Assembly (NCBI GenBank): GCA_049890295.1
Contig: JBMHBP010000012.1
Span: 9,983 to 73,982 of the forward strand
DNA from: Flavobacteriales bacterium
GTDB lineage: Bacteria; Bacteroidota; Bacteroidia; Flavobacteriales; UBA7312
Length of the DNA stretch: 64,000 nucleotides
Reading direction: 5' to 3'
Made by a program: the position numbers and the translations under genes. The notes beneath the pieces were generated by a model. That model ran no database searches. It saw nothing but the letters and a program-made list of their open reading frames with translations, and was not told the origin of the DNA. Below are positions 722 through 59,696 of this stretch, piece by piece (the first letter of the stretch is position 1; each line of letters starts with the position of its first letter).

Positions 722-3102
722 TAAAATTCTATTAGTAATCCTACCGTAGGTAAAACAGTACCCGATTCATTAACGATTTCATAGAGTGAATACTGAGAAT
801 CGTTTTGTGCTTCAAATAATTGCTCTCCAACATCTTCATTGATGCCAAGTTCTGAAGGTAATTGTATTTTATAATTATACAGGTTTTCTACATCTAGATA
901 AGCATTCAAACTCCATTTTTTGAAAAACCATTTTTTATCTAATCGAATATCTACACCGTGTATATCGCTAAGTCGTTCGTTATTTAACAAATCATAATTT
1001 AAAACACCCTGTTGATTTACGTTCCATACTCCTTTAATACTAGATGTAGCTAAATCATATGGTGTGTAAGGTGCTCCCCCAGAGTATCGAAACTTTATAC
1101 CGAGTTCGATATTCCTTTTAAACTTTTTTCCTGCCGTGACATTCAAAATGTATCGATTATCCCATGCTGATGGTATTAATACCTCGTTTTTATCCTCAAA
1201 TTCACTTTTGTAATAGGTAAAGGATAAAATACCGTAAACTGATGAACTCAGTTTTTGTTGGGCTAATAGTTCTAATCCATAACTTCTTCCCTTAGAAATG
1301 GAAGATATATTTTCATTGCCTATTACTCCAAAATCGCCACCAAGATTAGCCAACGAAATACCTACTGAATCAGAGAATGGGTAATTATTGTAGTTCTTAT
1401 AAAAACTCTCTAGTGTTATTTTACTATAATTTGAAGGGTTAAATTCTAACCCTAGTACAGCGTGATCGCATTGAATATAATTTGCATCCTTGTTGAGGTA
1501 GTTTCCATTGTTTTCAAATCCAAGAATAGTGTATGATGGTAATTGAAAATAACGACCTAAATTAGCGTTTATACTAGATTTTCCGTTAATGTTGTAAGCT
1601 AGCGATAAACGTGGTGAAATATTAGGTGTTGTCGAATTTTCTGTAAATGAATTTCCATCGGCACGAATACCAAACGAAGTAACCAATCGATCAACTAAGT
1701 AGGTCTTACTCAATTGCATGAAAGCACCATACTTGATAAAATATAAATCTGAATTAACGATCTTATCAGTGATGACGTCACCAAATGTAATCTTTCGGTT
1801 AGTAAAATTGGTATAACTGGCGTCCTCTAAATTAAAGCCGACATTAAACTTTATATTGTTTGTTCTAAAGTTATATTCAATTCGTGATTTATTCTCTATT
1901 TCTTCGGATTCGTAATCTAAAAGCTTTTCTGAGTTCAAATCGGCATAGTCAAGATACTTTTCTGCTGAATTATTTAAATGACTTCTACTGATTACTACTA
2001 AAAGATTTGAATTGTCAAAGAATCGTTTCCAACTTGCTCCAATAGCATAATTCCATTGTTCATTGACTGGTAAGTTGTTCAAAATGTATTCGTTCTGAGC
2101 TAAAGTTTGTGGGTCGTCAATATTTTGATTAGCATCAGGATTTAAGGTAAATTCATCAATGGCAGCTAAGCCGATAACGTTTATTTTATTTTTATTATCT
2201 GGCTTATGAGTTAACTTAAATTGTATGTCATTATAAGTTGGTAAGAAGGGTAATTGAAGGGCTTGAAACAGGAATTGTAGATATGAACGCCTAACGGAAA
2301 GAAGCATAGTCGTTTTATCATCTATTGGTGTATTAATAGAGAGTCCAGCATCACTTGAACCAACCATGAAAGATCCGCTAAAGCTTTCATCACTGCCTTC
2401 TATTTGTTTTAATTCCATAATGGAGCTTAATGCGTTTCCCCTATTAGCTGGAAAAGCTCCTGAATAAAAGTCTACTTCTCTAATAAAGTTAACATTAATT
2501 ATTCCTACTGGACCTCCTGATGAGCCTTGTGTAGCAAAGTGATTGATATTTGGGATTTCTATACCATCTAGAAAAAATCGATTTTCATTAGGTGCACCAC
2601 CTCTAATGATGATGTCATTTCTAAATGATGGCGTACTAGAAACTCCTGGTAGATTAGCAATTACTTTTGAAATATCTCTATTTCCGCCTGGGCTTCGGTA
2701 AATTTCGGATGCATTAATGGTTCTTAAACTAGTTGGACTCTCTTCAGTTTTGTTAAACGTATTGGCAGTAATCTGTACCTCTTCGATAATTTGAGCGTTC
2801 TCAGTCAAGCTAAAATCAAGTCGTAAGCTTTTATTAGGTGAAAGCTGAACTTCAGTCTTTGTATTAGGATCAAATCCAATGTAAGTGCATTTAAAATTAT
2901 ATTCACCAGGAGAAAGATCCAAAAGCTCAAAATTTCCATCAATATCAGTTGTTGTACCTAGACTTGTACCGTCCACTATAATATTGGCAAATGGTATCGG
3001 GTCATTGTTTATGGAATTGGTAACTTGACCATACACTTTAACCGTTTGAGCTGAAAGCTGTTGAACTAAAAATGAAAGAAAAAATATTATTAAAAGTCTC
3101 AT
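721..3102 (-). CDS. TonB-dependent receptor with N-terminal carboxypeptidase-regulatory-like domain
   Basis: 793 aa. Signal peptide (MRLLIIFFLSFLVQQLSAQ), CarboxypepD_reg-like start (VKVYGQVTNSINNDPIPFANIIVDG), plug-like region (RGGAPNENRFFLDGIEIPN), long beta-barrel and a terminal aromatic residue (..LLIEF). Confidence 0.85.
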   Translation of the reverse strand: MRLLIIFFLSFLVQQLSAQTVKVYGQVTNSINNDPIPFANIIVDGTSLGTTTDIDGNFELLDLSPGEYNFKCTYIGFDPNTKTEVQLSPNKSLRLDFSLTENAQIIEEVQITANTFNKTEESPTSLRTINASEIYRSPGGNRDISKVIANLPGVSSTPSFRNDIIIRGGAPNENRFFLDGIEIPNINHFATQGSSGGPVGIINVNFIREVDFYSGAFPANRGNALSSIMELKQIEGSDESFSGSFMVGSSDAGLSINTPIDDKTTMLLSVRRSYLQFLFQALQLPFLPTYNDIQFKLTHKPDNKNKINVIGLAAIDEFTLNPDANQNIDDPQTLAQNEYILNNLPVNEQWNYAIGASWKRFFDNSNLLVVISRSHLNNSAEKYLDYADLNSEKLLDYESEEIENKSRIEYNFRTNNIKFNVGFNLEDASYTNFTNRKITFGDVITDKIVNSDLYFIKYGAFMQLSKTYLVDRLVTSFGIRADGNSFTENSTTPNISPRLSLAYNINGKSSINANLGRYFQLPSYTILGFENNGNYLNKDANYIQCDHAVLGLEFNPSNYSKITLESFYKNYNNYPFSDSVGISLANLGGDFGVIGNENISSISKGRSYGLELLAQQKLSSSVYGILSFTYYKSEFEDKNEVLIPSAWDNRYILNVTAGKKFKRNIELGIKFRYSGGAPYTPYDLATSSIKGVWNVNQQGVLNYDLLNNERLSDIHGVDIRLDKKWFFKKWSLNAYLDVENLYNYKIQLPSELGINEDVGEQLFEAQNDSQYSLYEIVNESGTVLPTVGLLIEF

Positions 3103-3110
3103 AGATTATT

Positions 3111-4358
3111 TTATGCTGATTGTACATCAATTATTGATATTTCTGGTAAAATACCAACCCTTCCAGGATATCCCAGATGACCAATCCCTCTATTGACATA
3201 CAAGTAATTATTGCCTTTTTGGTAAAGTCCAGCCCAATGTTTATATCGCCACTTAACTGGGCTCCACTTAAATTTACCTACTTCAACTCCAAATTGCATG
3301 CCATGTGTATGTCCAGCCATTTGCAGGTCTATGTGCTGATCAGACTTCAACACTTTACTTTCCCAATGGGTTGGGTCATGAGATAACAAAAATGTGGGAA
3401 TATTCTCTTTAGAATTTTCAAGAGCTTTGTTCAGGTCCCCGTATTTTGAGAATCTTCCTGAACCCCAATTTTCTACCCCAACAATGTTAATCTCAACATT
3501 TGATACTTTTAAAACTCTAGTTTCATTCAATAATAAATCAAAGCCCATTGATTTATGAATTGATAGCATTTCTTGAAAGCTCTCATTCCACTTACTCAAA
3601 CCTAACTCGGTTGACCTATTTAATCCAATATAGTCGGCATAGTCATGATTACCCAATACAGAGTATTTTCCATATTTTGCCTTTAATTTTTTCATTACTT
3701 CCACAAAGGGTCTGGCTTCTGAAGGAAAATTATTTACCAAATCGCCAGTGAAAACAATTAAATCTGGATTTTCATTATTTATCAAATTAACAGCCTCGGT
3801 TAGTTTACTTACACTCTGAAAGCTACCTAAATGTAGGTCAGAAATTTGTATTATTCTTAAAGGCTTTTCACCTTTAGGGTAGTTTTTAAGATTAAGTTTT
3901 ACAAAATGTTTTTTGAAATTATATCTACCAATAAGGATTCCGTAGGTTAAAAGTGAAAGTGTAACTGCTCCGAAACCAAAAGCGGTTTTTTTCAAGAAAT
4001 TTAATCTTGTAATCGGCTCAGCAACTGATGATTGGTCAGTTGACGAGAAGAGTAGTCTATATAACTGTTTGAAAAGACGAATTACATCGTCAATTATAAG
4101 CGGAAATGCAACAGTCATTTTAGATGCTACAATAGCAAAAATAAATCCAAAAATAACCACCATATATCCTGGATATAAGGTCATGTTAGAGTTGATTGCT
4201 GGATAAAAAATGGCCGCTATTGTTAAAATTGAAATCATCCAGTATAAGTATTTAACTACTGGATTTGAAACAAAATATGTTTTAAATGCCGACCAGATAT
4301 ACAGGTCAAGTGAAAGGATAAATGTTACGAATATAGTTGCGAAAATTATTCTAGCCAT
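3111..4358 (-). CDS. Membrane-anchored metallophosphoesterase (calcineurin-like)
   Basis: 415 aa. N-terminal hydrophobic helices followed by phosphoesterase motifs ISDLHLG, TGDLVN, GNHDY, GHTHG. Confidence 0.85.
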   Translation of the reverse strand: MARIIFATIFVTFILSLDLYIWSAFKTYFVSNPVVKYLYWMISILTIAAIFYPAINSNMTLYPGYMVVIFGFIFAIVASKMTVAFPLIIDDVIRLFKQLYRLLFSSTDQSSVAEPITRLNFLKKTAFGFGAVTLSLLTYGILIGRYNFKKHFVKLNLKNYPKGEKPLRIIQISDLHLGSFQSVSKLTEAVNLINNENPDLIVFTGDLVNNFPSEARPFVEVMKKLKAKYGKYSVLGNHDYADYIGLNRSTELGLSKWNESFQEMLSIHKSMGFDLLLNETRVLKVSNVEINIVGVENWGSGRFSKYGDLNKALENSKENIPTFLLSHDPTHWESKVLKSDQHIDLQMAGHTHGMQFGVEVGKFKWSPVKWRYKHWAGLYQKGNNYLYVNRGIGHLGYPGRVGILPEISIIDVQSA

Positions 4359-4387
4359 TGTTGTTAAATTTCGGCAAATGTATTATT

Positions 4388-5023
4388 TTAAAGATTAAAT
4401 TCTGGAAGTTCATTTACTCTTGCATAAGGTAAATTATCAATACCTTTTAAACTATAATAACGATTCAGCCCACCTATCCCAACAGATTGAAGTTTTTGCA
4501 AATCAATTTCATAGTTTTCATTTAGGCATGTGTCATCAATAGTTATATGCTCAATAGAGCCTATAAACAAGGAACATTGATTAATGGTAATTGGAACTAC
4601 TTCCTCTAATTTTAAACCGATTTTCAAGTGGCTTTCTTTGACAAATGGCGCATCAAATCCATCAATATATTCTTCCGTTAGTTGACATTTTTCAAACTCT
4701 GAATCCTGTGAATCAAATTTGGCAGAAGTATAATGGGCTTTAGATACAAACTGAGGGTGTACATGATTGAAAGTATAATACTTTGTTTCTAATATATTTT
4801 CATAAGTATCGCGTCTTACTTCGGTATGCGGACGAAGAAAAAAACCTAACAAAGCAGGATGACTACCTAAATGTACTACTGAACTAAAAATAGCAAGATT
4901 AGTATTTCCTTCGCCTGATTTTGTGCCAATTAAATTAGCTGGCTTAATACCAGTTATTGAATTAATCAAATTTAAACGTTTAATTCGAGGGGTTTTAAAA
5001 ATATCTTCTTTGGTTAAGTGCAT
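4388..5023 (-). CDS. Flavin reductase family protein (FMN-binding split-barrel)
   Basis: 211 aa. LNLINSITGIKPANLIGTKSGEGNTNLAIFSSVVHLGSHPALLGFFLRP matches the conserved Bacteroidota flavin-reductase-like block as I remember it. Confidence 0.6.
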   Translation of the reverse strand: MHLTKEDIFKTPRIKRLNLINSITGIKPANLIGTKSGEGNTNLAIFSSVVHLGSHPALLGFFLRPHTEVRRDTYENILETKYYTFNHVHPQFVSKAHYTSAKFDSQDSEFEKCQLTEEYIDGFDAPFVKESHLKIGLKLEEVVPITINQCSLFIGSIEHITIDDTCLNENYEIDLQKLQSVGIGGLNRYYSLKGIDNLPYARVNELPEFNL

Positions 5024-5024
5024 T

Positions 5025-5504
5025 TTAAAGGATTATTCTACTTTTTACTAAATCTTGAAAAGATAGTATATTGGTTTCCGAAAAAGTTTTAAAGGTCGTG
5101 ACATCAAAAAAGAAAATGGCATGATCACCGTGGTGCTCCATAACAGATTTTTTTTCTAACTCAAGAACCGCTGAAATATCTTTAAGTATGGTATGATCTT
5201 TCCAATTTTCTAACAAGTCGTAAGACTGTAAATACCGTTCTTTATCATAAATACGGCCGCTGACTTTACCTAATTTACGAATCACTTTAAGATTATTGGA
5301 ACTGAGTAATTGGAGAACTACTTTATCAGATTTTTCGAGATTTTTAAAGGTTTTAGAAGTATAATCTATAGCAATCATATACATCTTAGGTTTCATACTA
5401 ATTGGAGATACATATGTACAAATATTCATGTTTAGACTATTGTTATCATCATAAGTAATCAAACTATAAACTGGTGGACTAATTGTATTCCAAGGTCGTT
5501 TCAT
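5025..5504 (-). CDS. Flavin reductase-like domain protein (weak call)
   Basis: 159 aa. Size and the pattern LITYDDNNSLNMNICTYVSPISMKPKMYMIAID resemble the flavin reductase-like fold. 4-nt overlap with the upstream gene and 1-nt gap to the downstream gene. Confidence 0.45.
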   Translation of the reverse strand: MKRPWNTISPPVYSLITYDDNNSLNMNICTYVSPISMKPKMYMIAIDYTSKTFKNLEKSDKVVLQLLSSNNLKVIRKLGKVSGRIYDKERYLQSYDLLENWKDHTILKDISAVLELEKKSVMEHHGDHAIFFFDVTTFKTFSETNILSFQDLVKSRIIL

Positions 5505-5962
5505 TTTTTAAATTTTTTATCTAAGACTTTAAATCTGTAATCGAAAATTTCTTTAAGTTGTTTTTTGATCAAAAATTGATTAGCAATGTCACCCAAAATA
5601 CCAAATGGTGGGATATAGGTAACAATATCAGTCATTAAAACACCCTTGTCATTTTCCTCAAAAAAATGTTGATGATGCCACATTTTATAAGGACCCATAC
5701 GTTGTTCATCAATAAAAAAATGTTTATCCCTAACTTGTGTTATTTCAGTCACCCAATTCATTTTAATATTCAAAAGCGGGGACACTTTATAAGAAATGAT
5801 CATGCCAGGATACATCTTTTCCCTCAACTCTTCAGAGGTAATTTCAAACAACATATAATCTGGTGTTATTTCTTTTAGATTTTTTGGAGAAGAAACAAAG
5901 TCCCAAATTGTATCGATGTCAGTGTTTAATTGCTGTTTTACAGTTAATTGATAGTGCGACAT
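5501..5962 (-). CDS. SRPBCC (START/polyketide-cyclase-like) family protein
   Basis: 153 aa. N-terminal pattern ...DIDTIWDFVSSPKNLKEITP... and the overall size are typical of SRPBCC ligand-binding proteins. First gene after operator copy 1. Confidence 0.6.
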   Translation of the reverse strand: MSHYQLTVKQQLNTDIDTIWDFVSSPKNLKEITPDYMLFEITSEELREKMYPGMIISYKVSPLLNIKMNWVTEITQVRDKHFFIDEQRMGPYKMWHHQHFFEENDKGVLMTDIVTYIPPFGILGDIANQFLIKKQLKEIFDYRFKVLDKKFKK

Positions 5963-5990: not shown

Positions 5991-6022
5991 TTGTATAATT
6001 ATCTTTTTATACATCTATACAA
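5991..6022. promoter_or_regulatory. Palindromic operator candidate copy 1 (TTGTATA-N18-TATACAA)
   Basis: TTGTATA at 5991..5997 and TATACAA at 6016..6022 with an 18-nt spacer. Lies 29 nt upstream of the SRPBCC start (5962, minus strand). The right arm overlaps a minus-strand TATATTTG box (6027..6020). Same arms and spacing as copies at 7262 and 14149. Confidence 0.6.
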
Positions 6023-6157: not shown

Positions 6158-7039
6158 TTAATTGATAATGTCTATAAATTCATCAAGGTTTTCCATAACA
6201 ATTAGACTTTTTTCCTGTGTTAGAAAATTTATATCTAGTCCATTAGCTACTAAATAATGTTTGGCTGATGGAAAAGTTTTGTTTATATAATCCGTTGTAA
6301 AATCTAGATTACTTTTTGAAGTATTTGAAATGGAGAAAAACAAAACATTATCTACTCTTCTTTTTTCTGCTAGCTGTTGAAGTGATCCGTAAGGAATGTT
6401 ATTACCCAAATAGATGACTTCATAACCATGTTTAACAAGTAAAAATTTAGCAAACATTAATCCTATATCATGAAATTCATTTTCGGGTAAGAAAAGTAAC
6501 CAGCTTTCTTTACTGTTGATATTTAAACTAGCAGAGTCAGCAGCGGCGGACACCTTTTGCTTAACAAGTTCAGATAAGAAATGCTCTTGTGAAGGAGCAA
6601 TTCTATTAGTGAGCCAAAAAATACCGACCTTATTGAAAGCTATTAATAAAACGCTTTTATAGAATTCAATAATTCCCAATTCACGAACACCACTATCATA
6701 AGTCAAATGAAACAATTTAGAATCAAACTCTAGAGCTGATTCAATGAGTTTAGAAATATAGTAAGCCTCTTTGGATTTATTATCAGAACTGTTTTTTATA
6801 CTATCTACTTTCTGTCGTATTTCATCATCAGAAAGTTTTGAGACCACAGATATTTTGAGTCCGTTTTCAAGTAAATAATTACAGTTAAGAGCACGCACTA
6901 ATAAGTCATCAGTATAATAACGGATTTTAGTGTCAGTACGCTCGGCTTTTAAAAACCCATAACGATTTTCCCATGTTCTTAGTACAAACTTGGTAATTCC
7001 CGTTATCTGGGAAAATTGATCTATACTATACTTTGTCAT
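6158..7039 (-). CDS. carH: MerR-family transcriptional regulator with B12-binding domain, CarH/LitR-type AdoB12 photoreceptor
   Basis: 293 aa. MerR HTH (YSIDQFSQITGITKFVLRTWENRYGF). Wx9EH (WLTNRIAPSQEH, nt 6581..6616). ExHxxG (EFHDIG, nt 6461..6478), then SIS about 42 aa later and NG about 28 aa after that, which is the cobalamin-binding Rossmann signature. Confidence 0.85.
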   Translation of the reverse strand: MTKYSIDQFSQITGITKFVLRTWENRYGFLKAERTDTKIRYYTDDLLVRALNCNYLLENGLKISVVSKLSDDEIRQKVDSIKNSSDNKSKEAYYISKLIESALEFDSKLFHLTYDSGVRELGIIEFYKSVLLIAFNKVGIFWLTNRIAPSQEHFLSELVKQKVSAAADSASLNINSKESWLLFLPENEFHDIGLMFAKFLLVKHGYEVIYLGNNIPYGSLQQLAEKRRVDNVLFFSISNTSKSNLDFTTDYINKTFPSAKHYLVANGLDINFLTQEKSLIVMENLDEFIDIIN

Positions 7040-7261
7040 TTACAATATATTTTCCATTTGGAAACTTGTCAAGCCAAAAATCAAGATTGCTTAGAGACTT
7101 AAGATTTATTCTAATCTTGTCAGTATAAAAGACAATCTTTGGTGTTCTTTTCTTGATTTCCTCTATAGAAATTTTTTGCTTTTTCTTTCTAGGCATTGTT
7201 TACAAAAATTTGTTATTAGCATACACCATAGTCAGCTAATCTTAGTGCAAATATACACTTT

Positions 7262-7293
7262 TTGTATAATTATTATGTTATTTTTTTATACAA
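7262..7293. promoter_or_regulatory. Palindromic operator candidate copy 2 (TTGTATA-N18-TATACAA) in the carH / cupredoxin-FAS1 divergent region
   Basis: TTGTATA at 7262..7268 and TATACAA at 7287..7293 with an 18-nt spacer. Flanked by a minus-strand TATATTTG (7255..7248, toward carH) and a plus-strand TATATTTG (7321..7328, 22 nt before ATG 7350). Confidence 0.6.
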
Positions 7294-7349: not shown

Positions 7350-9098
7350 ATGAAAAAAGTTTATTTATTATTTTCATTGTTTTTCTTGACAATGACATTT
7401 TCTTTTGCTAGCAGCCATCAAATAAATGCTGGCGGATTTTACTACCAACCATCTTCGCTCACAGTCTCTATTGGTGATACTGTAGTTTGGGTAAACGATG
7501 GTGGAACTCATGATGTTAATGGTAATATCAATTCTCAAACGGGATCTAGCTTTAACAATCCTGAAAGTTTTAGTTCAGCCTCAACATCAGCACAAGGAGC
7601 AATCATTTATACTTACGTATTTACCATACCTGGCACATACAACTATGATTGCTCAGTTGGTAATCATGCAGCAATGGGCATGGTTGGAACAATTATAGTT
7701 GAGGATGAAACTACAGTTTTTGATTTAATTGCTAGCTCTGAAAACCACACAACATTAGAAACAGCATTATTAACTGCTGGTCTTGACGCTGCCCTAAACG
7801 GCGATGGACCATTCACTGTGTTTGCTCCTAGTGATGATGCCTTTGGCGAAATACCACAAGATGATTTAGATAATCTGTTAGCCAATGCTGCACAGCTAAA
7901 CGCTGTTTTATTACACCACGTTCATGCTGGCGAAATCTTAGCTCAAGATATTGTTACAATGAATGGTATGACAATTGAAACACTAAACCAAGATCAATTA
8001 TCTGTCACCATTGACGGCTCAACAGTAATGATTGATATGTCTACTGTTACTACACCTGACCTTATCGCCGATAACGGGGTAGTACATGTTGTTGATATGG
8101 TATTAATGCCAGAAACACTGACAACTGTATTCGATATCATAGCTGGTTCAGAAAACCACATGACTTTAGAAACGGCTATACTTGAAGCCGAGTTAGATGA
8201 TGCTTTAAACGGTATTGGACCTTTGACCGTATTTGCTCCCAGTGATGATGTGTTCAACAATCTTCCGGAAGGTACACTAACTACTTTATTAGCTAATACA
8301 AATCTTTTAACCACCATACTATTACATCATGTACATGCCGGAGAACTTCTTTCAGCTGACTTAGTTGGCATGGATGGTATGACTATTGAAACACTGAACG
8401 ATGATGAATTAACAATTACAATCGCTAATGATATTGTCAAAATTGACATGGCTACAGTAACAATTCCAGATCTTACGGCAATTAATGGTGTTGTTCATGT
8501 GATTGACATGGTACTGATGCCTGAAATTGATACCACCATAACTGTGATGGATATTGTGGATAATTCACCATCACATACAACACTAAAAACAGCTTTATAC
8601 GAAGCTGAATTAGATGATGACCTAAGAACAGAAGGTCCATTCACTGTGTTTGCACCAACTGACAGTGCATTCAATAGTTTACCTGCAGGTGCTTTAGACG
8701 ATTTATTAGATAATATCCCAGCACTTATAGAGGTATTACACCATCACGTTCATTCTGGAAACGCTATGGCTGATGACTTATCTAATGATATGATGATTCC
8801 TACCCTAAACAACGATAATTTAACTGTAACAATTGAGGGTAGTACAGTCATGATAGATATGGCAACTGTTGTATTAGCTGATTTAACAGCAGATAACGGC
8901 GTAGTACATGTTATTGATATGGTTCTTTTACCGGAATCAAATCCAACAGCAATAGATGAATTTATTTCAACCGACAAATTTTACTTATATACAATGAACA
9001 TTCTTGGCGAAAAAGTTAATAGAAATGCTAAAGACAAAATTCTTATTGACATATTTTCTGATGGTAGTTCAATCAAACGTTATAACTTGACTAAGTAA
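7350..9098 (+). CDS. Secreted cupredoxin (type-1 copper-like) domain + three fasciclin (FAS1) domains + short C-terminal T9SS-like tail
   Basis: The track ORF starts at TTG 7176. I place the start at ATG 7350 (MKKVYLLFSLFFLTMTFSFA signal peptide). Cupredoxin region has candidate Cu ligands H (GGTHDV), C (YDCSV), H (GNHAAM), M (GMVG). There are three ~137-aa FAS1 repeats (TVFAPSDDAF...NGVVHVIDMVL). The tail NILGEKV...ILIDIFSDGSSIKRY resembles a truncated Por sorting domain. Confidence 0.8.
   Translation: MKKVYLLFSLFFLTMTFSFASSHQINAGGFYYQPSSLTVSIGDTVVWVNDGGTHDVNGNINSQTGSSFNNPESFSSASTSAQGAIIYTYVFTIPGTYNYDCSVGNHAAMGMVGTIIVEDETTVFDLIASSENHTTLETALLTAGLDAALNGDGPFTVFAPSDDAFGEIPQDDLDNLLANAAQLNAVLLHHVHAGEILAQDIVTMNGMTIETLNQDQLSVTIDGSTVMIDMSTVTTPDLIADNGVVHVVDMVLMPETLTTVFDIIAGSENHMTLETAILEAELDDALNGIGPLTVFAPSDDVFNNLPEGTLTTLLANTNLLTTILLHHVHAGELLSADLVGMDGMTIETLNDDELTITIANDIVKIDMATVTIPDLTAINGVVHVIDMVLMPEIDTTITVMDIVDNSPSHTTLKTALYEAELDDDLRTEGPFTVFAPTDSAFNSLPAGALDDLLDNIPALIEVLHHHVHSGNAMADDLSNDMMIPTLNNDNLTVTIEGSTVMIDMATVVLADLTADNGVVHVIDMVLLPESNPTAIDEFISTDKFYLYTMNILGEKVNRNAKDKILIDIFSDGSSIKRYNLTK
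7713..8936 (+). repeat. Three tandem ~411-bp coding repeats (FAS1 domain units)
   Basis: Units at about 7713..8111, 8124..8522 and 8538..8936 share long blocks at both nucleotide and protein level (ENHTTLETA / ENHMTLETA / PSHTTLKTA; FTVFAPSDDAF; LLHHVHAG; DNGVVHVVDMVLMPE). Confidence 0.8.
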
Positions 9099-9123
9099 AA
9101 CCCTCAATCAATTATACAATCAT

Positions 9124-9150
9124 GGGGGAGTAATTACTCCCCCTTTTTTA
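9124..9150 (+). terminator. Rho-independent terminator after the cupredoxin-FAS1 gene
   Basis: GGGGGAGT-AATT-ACTCCCCC gives an 8-bp GC-rich stem (9124..9143) followed by TTTTTT (9144..9149). It ends 11 nt before the gpx ATG. Confidence 0.75.
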
Positions 9151-9159
9151 TATCCTATT

Positions 9160-9684
9160 ATGACTAAATACCTCCTTTTAATTATATCACTTTTAACTAT
9201 GAATACTACAATTTCTCAAACTTTTTACGACCTGTCTATCAAAGGTATTGACGGAGAAACTATCAATCTTTCTGATTACAAAGAACAAAATGTACTGATT
9301 GTAAATGTTGCCTCATTTTGTGGTTATACTTCCCAATACACTGAACTTCAAAAATTACACGACTCTTTCCCCAACTTAACCGTAATAGGCGTTCCATGTA
9401 ATCAATTTGGTTTTCAAGAGCCTGGCAATGCAAAGGAGATACAGAACTTTTGTCAAAGTAAGTATAGTATAGATTTTGTGCTCACTGAAAAAACAAAAGT
9501 TAAGGGAAAAGACAAGCATGAACTTTATAAATGGTTGACAGAAAAGAGTCTAAATGGTAAAGATGACTTTTCAGTGAGTTGGAATTTCAATAAATTCCTA
9601 GTCAATTCAGATGGCCAATTAGTAGATCATTTTGGTAGTGGAGTGTCTCCAATGGACAGTAAAATCACCAGTCAAATTAGGTAA
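9160..9684 (+). CDS. Glutathione peroxidase (Cys-type, BtuE-like), secreted/periplasmic
   Basis: 174 aa. Signal peptide, VASFCGYTSQY (peroxidatic Cys block), GVPCNQFGFQEPG, WNFNKFLV. These are canonical GPx family motifs. Confidence 0.9.
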   Translation: MTKYLLLIISLLTMNTTISQTFYDLSIKGIDGETINLSDYKEQNVLIVNVASFCGYTSQYTELQKLHDSFPNLTVIGVPCNQFGFQEPGNAKEIQNFCQSKYSIDFVLTEKTKVKGKDKHELYKWLTEKSLNGKDDFSVSWNFNKFLVNSDGQLVDHFGSGVSPMDSKITSQIR

Positions 9685-10241
9685 TGAAGAAGTTTCTGAT
9701 TGTATGTTTATCTATAATTTCGGTATTTACTATTTACGCTTTTAATGTGAGTTATGATACAAACTATACCGTAATTGAGACTATTGAATCTGTAGAAATT
9801 CGAGAATATCCAGAATCAATTTTTGCTAGCTATTATACAAATGGTTCAGGAAATAACTCTCAATTTAGAGTGCTTGCCAACTACATTTTTGGCGGAAACG
9901 ACCGTCAAGAACAAATTGGTATGACCTCTCCGGTGAATATGAAAATATCATCTGAGAATAATGAAATGTTATTCTTGATGCCTAATCGATACAATAAAAT
10001 CAATTTACCAAAACCTAATAACATCAATATCGACATAATTACCGTAGAAAAACGTAAAGTAGCTACTCTTCGGTTTTCAGGTTACTCCAATACTGATAAA
10101 GTTAATAAGAAAAAAGCTCAACTTATCGAGACTCTAAATAAACACAATATTAAACATACCAATGAGTATGAACTATTAATTTACGACTCACCATATAAGT
10201 TGCTGAACCGAAGAAATGAAGTATTAGTCGTACTACCATAA
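9684..10241 (+). CDS. SOUL heme-binding family protein
   Basis: 185 aa. YTVIETIESVEIREYPE, FRVLANYIFGGN, IGMTSPV, ATLRFSGY are SOUL/HBP family blocks. The start overlaps the gpx stop by 1 nt. Confidence 0.75.
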   Translation: MKKFLIVCLSIISVFTIYAFNVSYDTNYTVIETIESVEIREYPESIFASYYTNGSGNNSQFRVLANYIFGGNDRQEQIGMTSPVNMKISSENNEMLFLMPNRYNKINLPKPNNINIDIITVEKRKVATLRFSGYSNTDKVNKKKAQLIETLNKHNIKHTNEYELLIYDSPYKLLNRRNEVLVVLP

Positions 10242-11035
10242 TGCCAGAAGGTCCTGAGGTAAAAATAGCATCCAAATTTTATAATTCTTTTTTTAAAGAA
10301 GCAAAAAATATGTCCTTTGATATTATCAACGAATATTATGAGGTCAAATACAAAACTGTTTTTGAAAAAATCAAAAACCATCATCCTAAAGATTTTGTAC
10401 CATCGTTTACAGTGGGTAAAAATTTATTTATTCCCTTAAACAACAATTATTTATTCAACTTCCATCTTGGCATGACAGGTTGCTGGAGTCATGAAAAATC
10501 AAAACACTGCCACTTCAAAATTTCTAGTAGTAATGGTGAACTCTTTTTTAAAGACGTTAGAAAATTTGGTAAAATGAGAATACTCACTTTTGATGAATTT
10601 GCCATAAAACATTCTCCTCAGTTTGATTTACTACATGAAGATTACAATACAGAATTACATCTAACATACCTTACAGAAAAAATTACCCCCAAACGGAGTA
10701 TATGCTCTGTATTGATGGATCAAAACTGTTTTCCTGGAGTTGGTAACTACATAAAATCTGAGGCCCTATTTGCTGCAAAAATTCATCCCGAAAAAAAATG
10801 GGGACAATTATCTAAGAGAAAAAAAATAACTTTAATAGAGTTTACAAAAGAAATCATGCATCATAGTTTTCAAACTGGAGGTGCTGAACTTAAAGATTTT
10901 AAAAACCCTTTTGACCAGTCTCAATTTTCATTAAAAGTGTATGGTAAAAAAAATGACCCTGAAGGGAATGAAGTGATCAGTCAATTAACCTCTGACCAGC
11001 GTAAAAGTTGGTTCTGTCCATCCGTTCAAAAATGA
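10241..11035 (+). CDS. Fpg/Nei family DNA glycosylase/AP lyase with degenerate (zincless-type) C-terminal finger
   Basis: 264 aa. N-terminal MPEGPEV (catalytic Pro2/Glu3), H2TH-like PGVGNYIKSEALFAAKIHP. The C-terminus ...VYGKKNDPEGNEVISQLTSDQRKSWFCPSVQK retains only one Cys where Fpg has CxxC...CxxC. Confidence 0.85.
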   Translation: MPEGPEVKIASKFYNSFFKEAKNMSFDIINEYYEVKYKTVFEKIKNHHPKDFVPSFTVGKNLFIPLNNNYLFNFHLGMTGCWSHEKSKHCHFKISSSNGELFFKDVRKFGKMRILTFDEFAIKHSPQFDLLHEDYNTELHLTYLTEKITPKRSICSVLMDQNCFPGVGNYIKSEALFAAKIHPEKKWGQLSKRKKITLIEFTKEIMHHSFQTGGAELKDFKNPFDQSQFSLKVYGKKNDPEGNEVISQLTSDQRKSWFCPSVQK

Positions 11036-11391
11036 ATTACTGTGTCCATTTTATTTTTTACAATCAGGAGCTACTACTATTGAAGCGAAAAAAAACAAAT
11101 CCATTTTTTCCTAACATATGGACACCTGTCATTGGGAAAATAAAAAATAATGAACAACCTTATGATGCAATGATTAGAGAAACAAAGGAAGAAACTGATT
11201 TGATTTTAGCAAATCCCCAATTTATTAAAGAAGTCAAACACAAGGATGATACGTATTGGTTTTATCAAAGCACGACCGAAACAACTGATATCTACTTGAA
11301 TCATGAAAATGATAAATTCAGTTTCTTTAAATGTAATGAGCTACCAGAAAGTTTATGGTTACTTTTCAAAAATATAGTTGCAAAATCCTAA
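11032..11391 (+). CDS. NUDIX hydrolase
   Basis: Nudix box GKIKNNEQPYDAMIRETKEETDL (Gx5Ex7REUxEExGU with G to D at the last Gly). I prefer ATG 11032 (ATGA overlap with the nei stop) over the track start at 11008. Confidence 0.8.
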   Translation: MNYCVHFIFYNQELLLLKRKKTNPFFPNIWTPVIGKIKNNEQPYDAMIRETKEETDLILANPQFIKEVKHKDDTYWFYQSTTETTDIYLNHENDKFSFFKCNELPESLWLLFKNIVAKS

Positions 11392-13454
11392 GTCAGTCGC
11401 TTAATAATCAAAGGCAAATAGACTAGATCAAAAAACACAGCAATAATTGCACTTAAGATAGTGATTACTGAAAGTTGAGATACAGACTTGAACTCAGAAA
11501 ACATCAGTGGTAGTAAACAAAAAATAATAATAAAGGTAGTTTTTACAACAGCCGAGCCCGTTTTAGTTAGCACTAAATCCATTGCTTTTGATTGGCTAAC
11601 CCCTCGCTTGATATGATTTGAATAGGCGCTAATCACATGTATTGAGTCATCAATAATCAGTCCAAAAACTATAGTAAAAATAAAAGCGTTAGATAAACTA
11701 AAGTAAAATCCAAATGTGTGAAGAATTCCAATACAAACAAGTATTGGTGCTAGATTTGGAATAACAGCAATCACAAAGTAATTTTTATTAAAATTATTGA
11801 TTACGAAGAAAATGATGCCTATTGATAAAATGGCAATCAATAAACCAAAAATTAGCTGTTTGGTTAAATCATTGGCTAATAAATCAAATAAATACCCCGC
11901 TCCAGAATATTCAAACTTAACCTCAGGGAATACACTTTCTAAGTTGTTTAACTTACTAATTGTTTTTAGTGAACCTTCATCAGAAGATCGACAAATAAAA
12001 AAATAACTATCGGCTAGAGATTCACTTGAAAACCCCATGCTTTTAAGCAAGCTAGTATTTGATGATATATTAGAAAAATCTATTGTAAAACCCAAGTTTA
12101 TCAATTCATCTTCAATAGCTTTTAATTGCTCATAGTCTAATTCTTTTTGTTGACTAATATTGATTGATATTGGCTTTATTCCTCCAAAATGTTGATCAAT
12201 GAAGGCCGTTTGTTTGTACATGAACGACTTTTTATTTATTTCATCAGTTAAGTAGTTGTCAATTTTTACATTAAACACACCATAAACTCCTAAAGCAACT
12301 AAAAAAACCATGACAACATGAAAAGTCATTTTCTGCTGGCCCTCTTTTAAAAACATAATAAAACTAGATATAAACTGTTCTATAAACAAATAACTATTAC
12401 TTTGATTAAAGCCTTTCTCAACACTGATGGAATAAACTAATTTGGCAATAAATAAAGTAACGACTACCCCTAAAGAAGTAATTATACCGAACCGTAAAAT
12501 TGGCATAATATCGTTAGCTAAAAAGGTTAGAAAACTCATAGCAGTAGTAATTGACGTCAAGGCTACAGCCTTCCCCACCAGGTTCATTCTATTGTCAAAA
12601 AAGCCTCTTCGAGATTGCGTCAGTTTAGCTTGTTTATTGGTCAAATGCATAATATCAGAAAGACAAACAATAAAAAGAATAGCAGGAGTAACAATCATTA
12701 CCAACTCAATACCACCAAATACAATTTGTGAAATTCCTAGCGTAATTACTATACTAGCTATTACGCTCATAACAGTTAAACTTACTAAAGCTAAATTTCG
12801 AGTAATAAGCATCAGAAATAAAAAGCAAAGCGTACCGCTAATAAGAGTCAAAACAATAAACTCTTCTATAACTTTTTTTGAAAAATATAATTCACTTGGC
12901 AGTCGTCCACTAACAAATACTTCCTCTAAATTAGCGTTAATATTAGCCTTATAAAGCGATGCTATAAAGGATTTATTTTCTTCAAAAGTAGTTTCCGCTT
13001 CTTTCTCTACTAAAAAAAGTAATTTTTTTCTGTCATCAGAAATGAAATTACTAGGTGATTGTTGTAACGTTAGAAAAGAGCGGTCAAATGATTGTTGACT
13101 TTGTAAATCCAACACCCTATTGGTGATTGGAAAAAGACCTGTATTTATAATTCGCCTGTCATTAATTATACTAAATAGACGTTTTACTTGGCTTGTTTTT
13201 TTTAAAGTCGTATGAAAATTTTTGACATCATTCATATCTGTATAAGACAGACTTTCTTTGAACGATAAGCCTAAAAAAACAAGATTATTATCATCGACTA
13301 ATTTTACAGCTTCGTTGCTAAGCTCTAACTCATTGATTATTCGTTCAGAATCAAAAAATATTGTTGCAGTCGAAAGACGAAAAGCACAATATATGAAAGT
13401 CAAAACGGTTAAAACCGATAAGCTATATTTATAACGCCACAAAAACGAATACAT
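11388..13454 (-). CDS. MMPL/RND-superfamily (sterol-sensing-domain type) membrane transporter
   Basis: 688 aa. Two hydrophobic 5-6 helix bundles separated by soluble loops, the topology typical of MMPL/SSD exporters. Follows the SDR gene after a 5-nt gap. Confidence 0.65.
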   Translation of the reverse strand: MYSFLWRYKYSLSVLTVLTFIYCAFRLSTATIFFDSERIINELELSNEAVKLVDDNNLVFLGLSFKESLSYTDMNDVKNFHTTLKKTSQVKRLFSIINDRRIINTGLFPITNRVLDLQSQQSFDRSFLTLQQSPSNFISDDRKKLLFLVEKEAETTFEENKSFIASLYKANINANLEEVFVSGRLPSELYFSKKVIEEFIVLTLISGTLCFLFLMLITRNLALVSLTVMSVIASIVITLGISQIVFGGIELVMIVTPAILFIVCLSDIMHLTNKQAKLTQSRRGFFDNRMNLVGKAVALTSITTAMSFLTFLANDIMPILRFGIITSLGVVVTLFIAKLVYSISVEKGFNQSNSYLFIEQFISSFIMFLKEGQQKMTFHVVMVFLVALGVYGVFNVKIDNYLTDEINKKSFMYKQTAFIDQHFGGIKPISINISQQKELDYEQLKAIEDELINLGFTIDFSNISSNTSLLKSMGFSSESLADSYFFICRSSDEGSLKTISKLNNLESVFPEVKFEYSGAGYLFDLLANDLTKQLIFGLLIAILSIGIIFFVINNFNKNYFVIAVIPNLAPILVCIGILHTFGFYFSLSNAFIFTIVFGLIIDDSIHVISAYSNHIKRGVSQSKAMDLVLTKTGSAVVKTTFIIIFCLLPLMFSEFKSVSQLSVITILSAIIAVFFDLVYLPLIIKRLT

Positions 13455-13459
13455 ACTTT

Positions 13460-14148: not shown

Positions 14149-14180
14149 TTGTATAATTTTGACAATGTAAATTTATACAA
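14149..14180. promoter_or_regulatory. Palindromic operator candidate copy 3 (TTGTATA-N18-TATACAA) in the SDR / PTPS-folE-crt divergent region
   Basis: TTGTATA at 14149..14155 and TATACAA at 14174..14180 with an 18-nt spacer, inside the 56-nt gap between ATG 14125 (minus) and ATG 14182 (plus). The left arm overlaps a plus-strand TAATTTTG box (14154..14161). A minus-strand TAGCTTTG box lies at 14141..14134. Confidence 0.6.
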
Positions 14181-15277: not shown

Positions 15278-15279
15278 AT

Positions 15280-18052: not shown

Positions 18053-18053
18053 T

Positions 18054-18593: not shown

Positions 18594-18602
18594 TTTTGTA
18601 CT

Positions 18603-37320: not shown

Positions 37321-37367
37321 ATAAGCAAAAATACTAAAAGAATTATTAGTTGAACGTTAGTAAAAAA

Positions 37368-39313: not shown

Positions 39314-39314
39314 A

Positions 39315-58005: not shown

Positions 58006-58056
58006 TTATAATTTAAAGAAATGATTAAATTTGTAAACAACTTTAAAAATACTATT

Positions 58057-59607: not shown

Positions 59608-59631
59608 GGATAATTTGCTAAACACAAAAAA

Positions 59632-59671
59632 GGTCAGTAGATTAGCAAAACTAATTTTCTGACCTTTTTTA
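59632..59671 (+). terminator. Rho-independent terminator after the paralog pair
   Basis: GGTCAG (59632..59637) pairs with CTGACC (59659..59664), with inner ATTAG/CTAAT pairing, followed by TTTTTT. Confidence 0.75.
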
Positions 59672-59696
59672 TTAATTAAAAAACCGAACAATTACT

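What the first reader, a model, noticed from the sequence alone, without database searches (positions are those of the whole stretch)
6158..7039. MerR regulator carries the complete CarH-type adenosylcobalamin photoreceptor signature (Wx9EH + ExHxxG)
The 293-aa product has a MerR HTH, then W142-x9-E152-H153 (WLTNRIAPSQEH, nt 6581..6616, verified by reverse-complementing the DNA). It also has E188-F-H190-D-I-G193 (nt 6461..6478, verified), followed by SIS about 42 residues later and NG about 28 residues after that. Established knowledge: Wx9EH in the four-helix bundle plus ExHxxG...SxL...GG in the Rossmann domain are the diagnostic residues of CarH/LitR AdoB12-dependent light sensors. The gene sits within 8 kb of crtI/crtB/crtZ. 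The inference is that this bacterium senses light through B12 and de-represses the neighbouring operons.
Basis: partly seen in the sequence, partly recalled or inferred. Interest (0 to 1): 0.6.

Follow-up and report, generated by a model that had tools for sequence, protein, structure and literature searches.

The report
B12-type light-sensing repressor with palindromic operators
This gene from an uncultured marine flavobacterium encodes a relative of CarH, the vitamin-B12 light sensor. It probably switches on about 27 kb of pigment, DNA-repair and antioxidant genes in the light through a conserved 30-bp palindrome, so it is an expected kind of regulator with some unusual details.

Summary
ORF 6158-7039 (-) encodes a 293-aa MerR-type protein with W142-x9-E152-H153 and E188-x-H190-x-x-G193 at the stated nucleotides. 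These residues align column for column with W131/E141/H142 and E175/H177/G180 of Thermus CarH. The modelled B12-binding domain superposes on the CarH crystal structures (TM 0.85-0.88, 2.5 A). The 'SIS' and 'NG' elements are not conserved, so the signature is not complete.

New here is a palindrome, TGTATA-N18-TATACA. It occurs exactly three times in the window (5992, 7263, 14150), each time in a promoter region. It recurs 47 times (0.05 expected) beside carH homologues in 27 related loci, even where gene order is rearranged. Its arms are the TnnACA core that CarH proteins recognise, but they are inverted rather than tandem.

The predicted regulon covers carH itself, a conserved 56-aa unknown protein, two carotenoid operons, photolyase, folE/PTPS, Fpg and glutathione peroxidase.

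The family lacks the His after Trp (TtCarH His132) and the R176-D201 salt bridge.

Verdict: a CarH/LitR class I-type repressor, almost certainly B12-binding and probably light-responsive, and a variant of a known kind. B12 binding and the light response are untested, and B12 supply could not be checked.

The parts
6158..7039 (-). carH/litR-like gene, 293 aa: MerR winged-helix DNA-binding domain, then a four-helix bundle, then a Rossmann-type B12-binding domain
6830..7030 (-). DNA-binding domain (aa 4-70). The recognition helix is R21-T-W-E-N-R-Y27, against RxWERRY in characterised CarH/CarA.
   Evidence: Pfam MerR_1 E 6e-14. The helix is invariant in all related loci. The RxWERRY motif is from PMC9304148.
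6581..6616 (-). Wx9EH motif (W142...E152-H153), predicted to cap the adenosyl group. The residue after the Trp is Leu143, not His.
6461..6478 (-). ExHxxG (E188-F-H190-D-I-G193). H190 is the predicted lower axial cobalt ligand.
7026..7196 (-). Conserved 56-aa ORF of unknown function. Its end overlaps the carH start codon by 14 nt, so it is probably co-transcribed with carH. In other genomes it always follows a palindrome, even when it is unlinked from carH.
7263..7292 (.). Palindrome O2, TGTATA-N18-TATACA. It lies 66 bp upstream of the small-ORF/carH unit and 58 bp upstream of the divergent cupredoxin-fasciclin gene. It is the candidate autoregulatory operator.
5992..6021 (.). Palindrome O1, 30 bp upstream of the ATG at 5962. 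That ATG opens a tightly packed minus-strand operon: SRPBCC-like gene, two flavin reductases, phosphoesterase, TonB receptor, epimerase, photolyase, crtD-like gene, cruF, lycopene cyclase.
14150..14179 (.). Palindrome O3. It fills the 56-bp gap between the divergent SDR-MMPL unit and the PTPS-folE-crtI-crtB-orf-idi-crtZ operon. Its left arm overlaps a TAATTTTG -7-like box.
1..5962 (-). In-window part of the O1 operon: SRPBCC-like 5501-5962, flavin reductases 5025-5504 and 4388-5023, metallophosphoesterase 3111-4358, TonB-dependent receptor 721-3102, and the start of the epimerase gene at 1-721. It continues beyond the window into photolyase, crtD-like, cruF and lycopene cyclase genes.
7350..11391 (+). 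Unit divergent from carH: secreted cupredoxin plus three fasciclin domains (7350-9098), glutathione peroxidase (9160-9684), SOUL haem-binding protein (9684-10241), Fpg DNA glycosylase (10241-11035), NUDIX (11032-11391).
11388..14125 (-). SDR (13460-14125) and MMPL/RND-type transporter (11388-13454), transcribed leftwards from O3.
14182..19040 (+). PTPS (14182-14598), GTP cyclohydrolase I (14579-15277), crtI (15280-16758), crtB (16755-17594), orf153 (17591-18052), idi-type NUDIX (18054-18593), crtZ (18603-19040).

Best explanation
The gene encodes a class I CarH/LitR-type regulator. This is a MerR-family repressor whose C-terminal domain holds adenosylcobalamin between a four-helix bundle (W142, E152, H153) and a Rossmann module (H190 as the lower cobalt ligand).

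In the dark, the B12-loaded protein oligomerises. The minimum is a head-to-tail dimer whose two DNA-binding domains reach half-sites 24 bp apart. It then sits on the 30-bp palindrome TTTGTATAA-N-TTATACAAA, which overlaps or adjoins the core promoters at O1, O2 and O3.

Light breaks the Co-C bond, the oligomer loses its DNA-binding geometry, and five transcription units are de-repressed:
- small ORF and carH
- the cupredoxin-fasciclin, GSH peroxidase, SOUL, Fpg and NUDIX unit
- the SRPBCC to photolyase to crtD/cruF/crtY operon
- SDR and MMPL
- the PTPS, folE, crtI, crtB, idi and crtZ operon

Shown here: domain architecture, motif alignment, fold match, and the conservation and promoter placement of the palindrome.

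Inferred: B12 binding, light sensitivity, oligomeric state, that CarH is the protein binding the palindrome, and repression rather than activation.
For: Sequence and fold.
- MerR_1, B12-binding_2 and B12-binding occur in the CarH order.
- The best NCBIfam model is TransRegCarH.
- The best PDB hits are TtCarH/LitR, with W/EH/ExHxxG in the same columns.
- The AF2 model has pLDDT 84. Its B12-binding domain matches TtCarH B12-binding-domain (CBD) crystal structures at TMt 0.85-0.88 and rmsd about 2.5 A over about 200 residues.
- The six signature residues are invariant in 30 homologues and present in more than 95% of 383 wider relatives.

Operator.
- TGTATA-N18-TATACA occurs 3 times in the window against 0.29 expected for gaps of any length from 6 to 24. 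All three are at N18 and all three are intergenic.
- Over 565 kb of window plus related loci there are 47 exact sites against 0.05 expected. There are 0-1 at every other spacer length except N26, which has 7. Control palindromes give 0-1.
- The arms and spacing are conserved while the inner 18 bp drift.
- The sites track carH, the small ORF and the crt, photolyase and SDR promoters through rearranged gene orders and down to 40% CarH identity.
- Each arm, TATACA, fits the TnnACA core of the 11-bp repeat bound by characterised CarH proteins (PMC9304148).
- The recognition helix RTWENRY is invariant wherever the palindrome occurs.
- The half-site spacing of 24 bp is close to the 22 bp between DR1 and DR3. 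One TtCarH head-to-tail dimer contacts those two non-contiguous repeats, which lie two 11-bp units apart (PMC9304148).

Regulon content. It is photoprotective: carotenoids, photolyase, folE, Fpg and glutathione peroxidase. This resembles the light regulons reported for LitR proteins (PMC9758184). In Dokdonia MED134, crtBI and the adjacent MerR regulator are light-induced (bioRxiv 10.1101/2023.12.25.573297).
Against: - There is no biochemical evidence at all.
- The GG element of the classic B12 motif is absent and the SxV/T element is off register.
- The Pfam B12 domains score just below their gathering thresholds. The NCBIfam CarH equivalog scores 79 bits against a cut-off of 400.
- Leu143 replaces TtCarH His132, which is reported to be critical for light-driven tetramer disassembly (PMC10442372).
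- F189 and N214 replace the R176-D201 salt bridge, whose disruption abolishes TtCarH tetramers (PMC8221060).
- The operator is an inverted pair, whereas characterised CarH operators are 3-4 tandem direct repeats. No such tandem array exists here.
- The window contains no B12 uptake, adenosylation or riboswitch element, so the cofactor supply is unverified.
- O2 lies upstream of, not over, the predicted core promoter of the cupredoxin-fasciclin gene.
Confidence: 0.7

Rival explanations
1. The protein is a CarH homologue that binds B12, but light is not the direct release signal. Lacking the upper-axial His, it may stay assembled after photolysis. It would then need a partner to leave the DNA, or it would report B12 availability rather than light. 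The partner could be a light-induced antirepressor, in the way CarS acts on CarA/CarH in Myxococcus. The co-transcribed 56-aa protein is the obvious candidate.
For: - Leu143 is invariant. There is 1 His among 377 motif-bearing relatives.
- TtCarH H132A stays mostly tetrameric in light (PMC10442372).
- The 56-aa ORF overlaps the carH start and is always preceded by a palindrome.
- CarS-type antirepression is a known precedent (PMC8156234, PMC9304148).
Against: - The adenosyl-capping Wx9EH motif, which defines AdoCbl-dependent photoreceptors as opposed to CarA, is intact and invariant.
- PMC9304148 says only that many, not all, CarH homologues have the His.
- The 56-aa protein is strongly basic at its N-terminus, unlike CarS, which binds the repressor's DNA-binding domain. 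It has no detectable fold relatives.
- The regulon content is specifically photoprotective.
Confidence: 0.13
2. The palindrome is the site of another regulator, or is part of a special promoter. CarH binds elsewhere or controls only a subset of these genes.
For: - The arms are flanked by T/A-rich sequence that resembles Bacteroidota -33 (TTTG) and -7 (TAnnTTTG) promoter elements.
- No binding data exist.
- The operator architecture differs from every characterised CarH operator (PMC9304148).
Against: - A strict 18-bp spacer with two-fold symmetry is typical of an oligomeric transcription factor, not of a sigma factor.
- The arms equal the TnnACA CarH core.
- In every informative related locus, a palindrome with at most one mismatch precedes the transcription unit that contains carH.
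- The invariant recognition helix parallels the invariant arms.
- No other regulator gene is conserved in these loci.
Confidence: 0.12
3. The motifs are a chance resemblance, or a degenerate B12-independent relic of the CarA type or of class II-V LitR types.
For: The Pfam B12 domains fall below their gathering thresholds. GG is missing.
Against: - CarA lacks the Trp, and class II LitR lacks the Rossmann module (PMC9304148, PMC9758184). Here both are present.
- The signature residues are invariant across hundreds of relatives, and the fold matches the CarH B12-binding domain at TM about 0.87.
Confidence: 0.03

Closest known systems
Thermus thermophilus CarH (LitR; PDB 5C8D/5C8E/5C8F, 3WHP), the structural paradigm of class I AdoB12 photoreceptor-repressors
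   Same: - Same three-module architecture.
- W131/E141/H142 and E175/H177/G180 correspond to W142/E152/H153 and E188/H190/G193.
- The B12-binding-domain fold matches at TM 0.85-0.88.
- The recognition helix is RxWE(R/N)RY.
- The R149-D178 interface pair corresponds to K160-D191, and G192 to G205.
- It controls carotenoid genes.
- The DNA half-site core is TnnACA.
   Different: - Only 22-25% identity.
- The linker between the DNA-binding and B12-binding domains is about 15 residues longer.
- His132 is Leu143 here.
- The R176-D201 salt bridge is F189/N214 here.
- GG is absent.
- The operator is two inverted half-sites 24 bp apart, instead of three tandem 11-bp direct repeats.
- The predicted regulon is much larger and is reached directly, without an LdrP-type intermediate.
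Bacillus megaterium CarH and the myxobacterial CarH proteins (M. xanthus, Cystobacter)
   Same: They are AdoCbl-dependent repressors defined by Wx9EH plus the B12 motif. Their oligomeric states are plastic: tetramer, dimer, or two dimers on the DNA. This makes a dimer-on-palindrome mode plausible (PMC9304148).
   Different: All of them bind arrays of three to five tandem direct repeats or pseudo-repeats. None is reported to use a two-half-site palindrome with an 18-bp spacer.
M. xanthus CarA (the B12-independent paralogue) with its antirepressor CarS
   Same: It is a MerR-type repressor whose operator contains inverted repeats. A small light-induced protein (CarS) relieves repression.
   Different: CarA lacks the Trp of Wx9EH, which is intact here. 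The 56-aa protein here has no detectable similarity to anything in Pfam or NCBIfam and is basic.
Class II LitR of Pseudomonas (PplR/PmlR with short LOV partners)
   Same: The light regulon includes photolyase and folE, as predicted here (PMC9758184).
   Different: Class II proteins keep only the four-helix bundle and sense light through a LOV partner. This protein keeps the full B12-binding domain.

Membership tests
CarH/LitR class I (AdoB12-dependent photoreceptor-repressors) | N-terminal MerR-type winged-helix DNA-binding domain with an RxWERRY recognition helix | tested here: met
   Pfam MerR_1 covers aa 4-70 (E 6e-14). The helix is RTWENRY, with one substitution (R to N), and is invariant in the family. 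The protein also hits the CarA DNA-binding domain 2jml.
CarH/LitR class I | [quoted passage not shown] | tested here: met
   W142...E152-H153 aligns with TtCarH W131...E141-H142. It is invariant in 30 homologues and present in 141 of 146 representative clusters of at least 200 aa.
CarH/LitR class I | E/DxHxxG with His as the lower axial cobalt ligand | tested here: met
   E188-F-H190-D-I-G193 aligns with TtCarH E175-R-H177-E-I-G180. It is invariant.
CarH/LitR class I | The rest of the classic B12 motif: x41-SxV/T-x22-27-GG | tested here: not met
   S236-I-S238 comes after x42, and a gapless alignment puts the invariant F235 opposite the Thermus Ser. The GG position is N266-G267 here and N/T/K-S/N/E/D in relatives. 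The Ser register is inconclusive without coordinates. GG is clearly not conserved.
CarH/LitR class I | The B12-binding domain has the CarH fold: a four-helix bundle packed on a five-stranded Rossmann module | tested here: met
   The AF2 model has pLDDT 84.3. Foldseek against TtCarH B12-binding-domain chains gives TMt 0.85-0.88 and rmsd 2.4-2.7 A over about 200 columns. The full-length top hits are 5c8e and 5c8d at E 4e-16.
CarH/LitR class I | Operator of at least three tandem 11-bp direct repeats (nnnnTnnACAn) overlapping the promoter | tested here: not met
   A search for 3 x TnnACA at 11-bp phase gives 2 hits with one mismatch against 0.99 expected, both far from the cluster. Two inverted TnnACA arms with an 18-bp spacer are found instead.
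CarH/LitR class I | Light-state and oligomer determinants of TtCarH: His132 as upper ligand, the R176-D201 salt bridge, and G160/G192 at the dimer-dimer interface | tested here: not met
   His132 corresponds to the invariant L143, R176 to F189, and D201 to N214. The G160 region is a variable loop. R149-D178 corresponds to K160-D191 and G192 to G205, and these are retained (PMC10442372, PMC8221060). These features are mechanistic rather than definitional.
CarH/LitR class I | AdoCbl binding, dark-state oligomerisation and DNA binding, and release by light | not testable with these tools
   This needs purified protein: UV-vis, SEC and EMSA, each with and without light.
CarH/LitR class I | Genomic association with carotenoid and photoprotection genes | tested here: met
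   crtI, crtB, idi and crtZ lie on one side. Photolyase, crtD-like, cruF and lycopene cyclase genes lie on the other. The association is conserved in related loci.
NCBIfam NF052513 TransRegCarH (equivalog) | Score at or above the curated cut-off of 400 bits | tested here: not met
   79.2 bits. It is the best-scoring model but lies far below equivalog level.
CarA (B12-independent paralogue) | Loss of the Trp and flanking residues of Wx9EH | tested here: not met
   The Trp and the full motif are present, so this is not a CarA.
Class II LitR | Only the four-helix bundle is present, with no Rossmann B12 module | tested here: not met
   The Rossmann module is present and modelled.

The most novel reading that the evidence does not exclude
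This protein stands for a very large, experimentally untouched branch of B12 photoreceptors in Bacteroidota: 618 clusters (at 50% identity) with E<=1e-30. The branch would work differently from the Thermus paradigm.

- It has no upper-axial His and no R-D dimer salt bridge.
- Its linker is longer.
- It binds as a two-fold symmetric AdoCbl-dependent dimer, or as a tetramer using only two DNA-binding domains, to a two-half-site palindrome.
- The conserved, co-transcribed 56-aa protein may be an obligatory partner, as an antirepressor or adaptor.

If so, light control of pigmentation and DNA repair in abundant, B12-scavenging marine flavobacteria would depend on an external vitamin.
Probability: 0.2. 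Interest if true: 0.6.

Novelty: new variant of a known kind. Interest (0 to 1): 0.4.

Why it matters
CarH-type B12 photoreceptors are well understood in only a handful of bacteria (Thermus, Bacillus and the myxobacteria). This gene belongs to a huge clade found in Flavobacteriales/Bacteroidota MAGs wherever sources name the organism. Its members are annotated only as 'MerR family regulator'.

The conserved palindrome gives a concrete, testable operator. It also gives a way to read light regulons directly from marine metagenomes. Here it ties together carotenoid synthesis, photolyase, pterin synthesis and oxidative-damage repair in one island of about 27 kb.

Residues held to be critical for light-driven disassembly in Thermus CarH are consistently absent in this clade. 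This makes the clade a natural test of how general that mechanism is.

The predicted dependence on adenosylcobalamin would also link photoprotection in marine flavobacteria to vitamin B12 supply in the ocean.

None of this overturns current understanding. The existence of such a regulator next to crt genes is expected.

Tried and rejected
- Rfam scan of the whole window: no hit, so no cobalamin riboswitch.
- B12 uptake, adenosyltransferase or B12-dependent enzyme genes in the window: none. The TonB receptor in the operon is SusC/RagA-like at its N-terminus, not BtuB-like. The rest of the genome could not be reached.
- Canonical CarH operator (three tandem 11-bp TnnACA repeats): chance level.
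- TTGTATAATTAT with two mismatches as a stand-alone motif: not enriched, 35 hits against 34 expected. Only the paired arms at N18 are significant.
- Sigma-70 promoter and terminator scan around carH: not above the shuffled background, and the wrong promoter type for Bacteroidota.
- The 56-aa ORF: no Pfam or NCBIfam family. Its 236 homologues are all 'hypothetical'. The AF2 model is of modest quality (pLDDT 72) and has no significant PDB fold match (best E 0.2).
- Literature: no paper in the held library describes a Bacteroidota CarH or this palindrome. Jost et al. 2015 is not held.
- MAFFT misaligns the C-terminal 60 residues with TtCarH. The GG mapping therefore rests on strand position in the model, not on the alignment.
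Full report
**1. The observation**

ORF 6158-7039 on the minus strand encodes 293 residues. A script places WLTNRIAPSQEH at residues 142-153 (nt 6581-6616). It places EFHDIG at 188-193 (nt 6461-6478), SIS at 236-238 and NG at 266-267.

Pfam finds MerR_1 at residues 4-70 (E 6e-14). It also finds B12-binding_2 (97-165) and B12-binding (186-241), each at 22.1 bits, just under their gathering scores. The best NCBIfam model is the CarH equivalog, but at 79 bits against a cut-off of 400.

The same protein sequence occurs in a Flavobacteriales MAG (GCA_049889755.1), in a TARA Oceans scaffold and in four other assembled read sets. The window has 34% G+C.

**2. Is it a CarH relative?**

The best hits among solved structures are Thermus thermophilus CarH/LitR (3whp, 5c8d; E 2e-13). 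In the HMMER alignment the query's W...EH and ExHxxG lie in the same columns as 'vgeaWhrgeigvaeEH' and 'gErHeiG'. I rebuilt the Thermus sequence from the printed alignments and verified its C-terminal 65 residues against 5c8a. I then aligned it with family members. This gives:
- W131, E141 and H142 correspond to W142, E152 and H153.
- E175, H177 and G180 correspond to E188, H190 and G193.

All six residues are invariant in 30 homologues of 51-81% identity.

An AlphaFold model built on that alignment has mean pLDDT 84. Foldseek against the PDB returns only CarH entries at the top. The B12-binding domain superposes on TtCarH B12-binding-domain crystal structures at TM 0.85-0.88 (normalised to the target) and rmsd about 2.5 A over about 200 columns.

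By the published definition a CarH homologue has both Wx9EH and the classic B12 motif (PMC8156234, PMC9304148). On that definition the protein qualifies, except for the tail of the B12 motif:
- The Ser of SxV/T is off by one. The invariant F235 sits opposite the Thermus Ser in a gapless alignment.
- The GG position is N-G here and not conserved in relatives.

It is not a CarA, because the Trp is present. It is not a class II LitR, because the Rossmann module is present (PMC9758184).

**3. Surroundings**

All genes from 1 to about 19,040 belong to one photoprotection island.

Downstream of carH on the same strand is a tightly packed operon:
- SRPBCC-like 153-aa gene
- two flavin reductases
- metallophosphoesterase
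- TonB-dependent receptor
- epimerase

Beyond window position 1 the operon continues with photolyase, a crtD-like desaturase, cruF and lycopene cyclase.

Divergent from carH lie these genes:
- a secreted cupredoxin with three fasciclin domains
- glutathione peroxidase
- a SOUL haem-binding protein
- Fpg
- a NUDIX protein

Further on come SDR-MMPL, and divergent from those PTPS-folE-crtI-crtB-orf153-idi-crtZ.

The rest of the window holds SprA, a sulfotransferase-rich polysaccharide cluster, cytochrome oxidase assembly genes and T9SS substrates. It has nothing to do with B12. Rfam finds no riboswitch.

**4. A candidate operator**

Reading the intergenic DNA showed TGTATAATTAT repeated on both sides of carH. 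A gapped search for TGTATA-N6-24-TATACA gave three hits against 0.29 expected. All three have exactly 18 bp between the arms and all three are intergenic: 5992-6021, 7263-7292 and 14150-14179. The window has no one-mismatch site. The two-mismatch sites are scattered over the window away from these three promoter regions.

I fetched 27 loci encoding relatives (40-80% identity), all from uncultured Flavobacteriales, Cryomorphaceae or Crocinitomicaceae. The palindrome recurs in nearly all of them. Over 553 kb, spacer N18 gives 47 exact sites, every other spacer from 4 to 40 gives 0 or 1 (N26 gives 7), and ten composition-matched control palindromes give 0-1. A first-order Markov simulation over 565 kb (the same sequences plus L035) expects 0.05 exact and 3.4 one-mismatch sites. 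Observed are 47 and 23. Of the 47 exact sites, 37 lie outside ORFs, although only 13% of the sequence is outside ORFs.

The arms and the spacing are fixed while the inner 18 bp drift. The symmetrised consensus is TTTGTATAA-n-TTT...AAA-n-TTATACAAA.

A tblastn map shows that the sites follow the genes, not the positions. A site precedes each of these:
- carH, or small ORF plus carH
- the SRPBCC/photolyase operon
- the crt operon and the divergent SDR-MMPL unit
- the cupredoxin-fasciclin gene
- the small ORF, even where it is unlinked from carH (L021-L024)

In the most distant lineage (L027, L028, L035) one-mismatch versions lie between crtI and carH and in front of the small ORF. In every informative locus the transcription unit containing carH is preceded by a site.

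**5. Why CarH is the likely binder**

Characterised CarH proteins recognise 11-bp repeats with the core TnnACA, through a recognition helix RxWERRY (PMC9304148). Each arm here, TATACA, is a TnnACA. The helix is RTWENRY and is invariant in every locus that carries the palindrome. No other regulator gene is conserved in these loci.

What differs is the architecture. There are two inverted half-sites 24 bp apart centre to centre, instead of three (Thermus) or four (Bacillus) tandem direct repeats. A search for tandem triple repeats finds only chance hits elsewhere in the window.

In the Thermus complex, one head-to-tail dimer contacts the non-contiguous repeats DR1 and DR3 (PMC9304148). With 11-bp repeats these are 22 bp apart. 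A head-to-tail dimer spanning 24 bp is therefore geometrically reasonable. The linker between the DNA-binding domain and the B12-binding domain is about 15 residues longer here, which could allow the inverted orientation. This paragraph is inference.

**6. Promoter placement (pattern-based inference)**

- At O3 the left arm overlaps a perfect Bacteroidota -7-type box (TAATTTTG), 21 bp before the PTPS start codon.
- At O1 a TATATTTG box abuts the arm, so the palindrome would cover roughly -6 to +24 of the photolyase operon promoter.
- At O2 a TATATTTG box lies 8 bp from the arm on the carH side, so the site would cover the -33 region of the small-ORF/carH promoter. This implies autoregulation.
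- For the cupredoxin-fasciclin gene, O2 lies further upstream, so its control is less certain.

These positions fit repression by promoter occlusion, as for known CarH proteins.

**7. Departures from the Thermus mechanism**

- The residue after the Trp is Leu143 and is invariant. In Thermus it is His132, which becomes the upper cobalt ligand after photolysis. In a 2023 study it is required for tetramer disassembly, because H132A stays mostly tetrameric (PMC10442372).
- The R176-D201 salt bridge of the head-to-tail dimer is F189/N214 here, both invariant. The D201R mutation abolishes Thermus tetramers (PMC8221060).
- The second proposed pair, R149-D178, is kept as K160-D191. G192 is kept as G205 (my residue mapping).

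An exhaustive profile search finds 7,465 clusters at E<=1e-3 and 618 at E<=1e-30. Among 377 motif-bearing relatives from three searches, only one has His after the Trp. At least 97% keep the lower-axial His. Where sources give names, they say Flavobacteriales, Vicingaceae or Bacteroidota, 'MerR family transcriptional regulator', and occasionally the KEGG label 'light-induced transcriptional regulator'.

The missing His is therefore a property of a very large clade, not a quirk of this gene. PMC9304148 notes only that 'many' CarH homologues have that His.

**8. The 56-aa ORF**

Window 7026-7196 (-) encodes MPRKKKQKISIEEIKKRTPKIVFYTDKIRINLKSLSNLDFWLDKFPNGKYIVNDKV. Its end overlaps the carH ATG by 14 nt. 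It is conserved at the protein level in 19 of the related loci. It has 236 database homologues, all unnamed, and no Pfam or NCBIfam family. Its predicted small alpha/beta fold has modest confidence and no significant structural match.

It is a consistent member of the predicted regulon and often sits next to carH and the SRPBCC-like gene. Its role is unknown. A partner or antirepressor role is a speculation worth testing.

**9. Comparison and novelty**

In function and family, this is a class I CarH/LitR-type regulator. The regulon content parallels reported light regulons. Photolyase and folE appear in Pseudomonas LitR regulons (PMC9758184). In the flavobacterium Dokdonia MED134, crtBI, the adjacent MerR regulator and photolyases are light-induced (bioRxiv 10.1101/2023.12.25.573297). 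I did not show that the MED134 regulator is an orthologue.

I found no paper in the held library on a Bacteroidota CarH or on this palindrome. My recollection, unverified, is that reviews list Bacteroidetes among the phyla with CarH homologues.

I therefore rate it a new variant of a known kind. The regulator type is expected. The predicted operator design and the systematic absence of Thermus-type light-state residues are the new elements, and both are computational.

**10. Limits**

- There is no biochemistry.
- B12 supply is unverified, because only 64 kb plus flanks of the genome were visible.
- Promoter assignments come from consensus patterns.
- The oligomeric state is unknown.
- The mapping of the SxV/T Ser is unresolved without coordinates.

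**Confidence**
- CarH-family membership by sequence and fold: about 0.9.
- B12 binding: about 0.8.
- The palindrome is its operator: about 0.75.
- The whole light-derepression model: about 0.7.

Noticed in passing
window 7026-7196 (-); homologues in L007-L018, L021-L025, L027, L028, L035: A conserved 56-aa basic protein overlaps the carH start by 14 nt. It has 236 homologues, all hypothetical, with no Pfam or NCBIfam family and no significant fold match. It is always preceded by the palindrome, even when it is unlinked from carH.
   Followed up: yes
window 5501-5962 (-); next to carH in L018-L028 and L035: A 153-aa SRPBCC-like protein is the most constant neighbour of carH across rearranged loci. 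Its Polyketide_cyc match is sub-threshold (E 3.6e-4) and it has no NCBIfam match. It may be a lipid- or carotenoid-binding partner.
   Followed up: partly
window 14182-15277 (+): The PTPS (queD-like) and GTP cyclohydrolase I genes are fused to the front of the crtI-crtB operon, directly behind palindrome O3. Pterin synthesis is thus co-regulated with carotenoids, which recalls folE in Pseudomonas light regulons and could supply photolyase antenna pterins.
   Followed up: partly
window 7350-11391 (+): The unit divergent from carH combines a secreted cupredoxin with three fasciclin domains, glutathione peroxidase, a SOUL haem-binding protein, Fpg glycosylase and a NUDIX protein. It looks like an oxidative-damage set. 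The cupredoxin-fasciclin gene stays next to carH even in relatives at 40% identity (L029-L033).
   Followed up: partly
window 721-5504 (-): Two flavin-reductase-like genes, a membrane metallophosphoesterase (YaeI/LpxG-like) and a TonB-dependent receptor with a CarboxypepD_reg N-terminal domain sit inside the photolyase/carotenoid operon. Their role in a light response is unclear. The receptor is not BtuB-like.
   Followed up: partly
P0241-P0506: The wider clade has 7,465 clusters at 50% identity, with RIWEKRY- or RIWEQRY-type recognition helices. It keeps Wx9EH and the lower His but almost never has His after the Trp (1 of 377). In about a quarter of representatives the Gly of ExHxxG is replaced by Ser, Ala or Leu.
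   Followed up: partly
window 5992-6021: O1 carries an extra TATACA inside the spacer, reading TGTATA-N10-TATACA-TC-TATACA. Across the loci, 7 sites show a second TATACA at N26. There may be a third half-site at some operators.
   Followed up: no
window 17591-18052 (+): A 153-aa ORF with no family match is conserved between crtB and idi in nearly all related crt operons (labelled orf153).
   Followed up: no
window 35743-45377 (-) and 47692-54837 (-): A polysaccharide biosynthesis cluster with two sulfotransferases, a Wzy-type polymerase and a flippase lies next to the 2,381-aa gliding/T9SS protein SprA. It is unrelated to the finding.
   Followed up: no
window 56479-60188 (+): Two thioredoxin/AhpC-like proteins carry T9SS C-terminal sorting domains (508 and 528 aa). 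A 163-aa thioredoxin-fold protein follows them. Secreted redox proteins of this kind are unusual.
   Followed up: no
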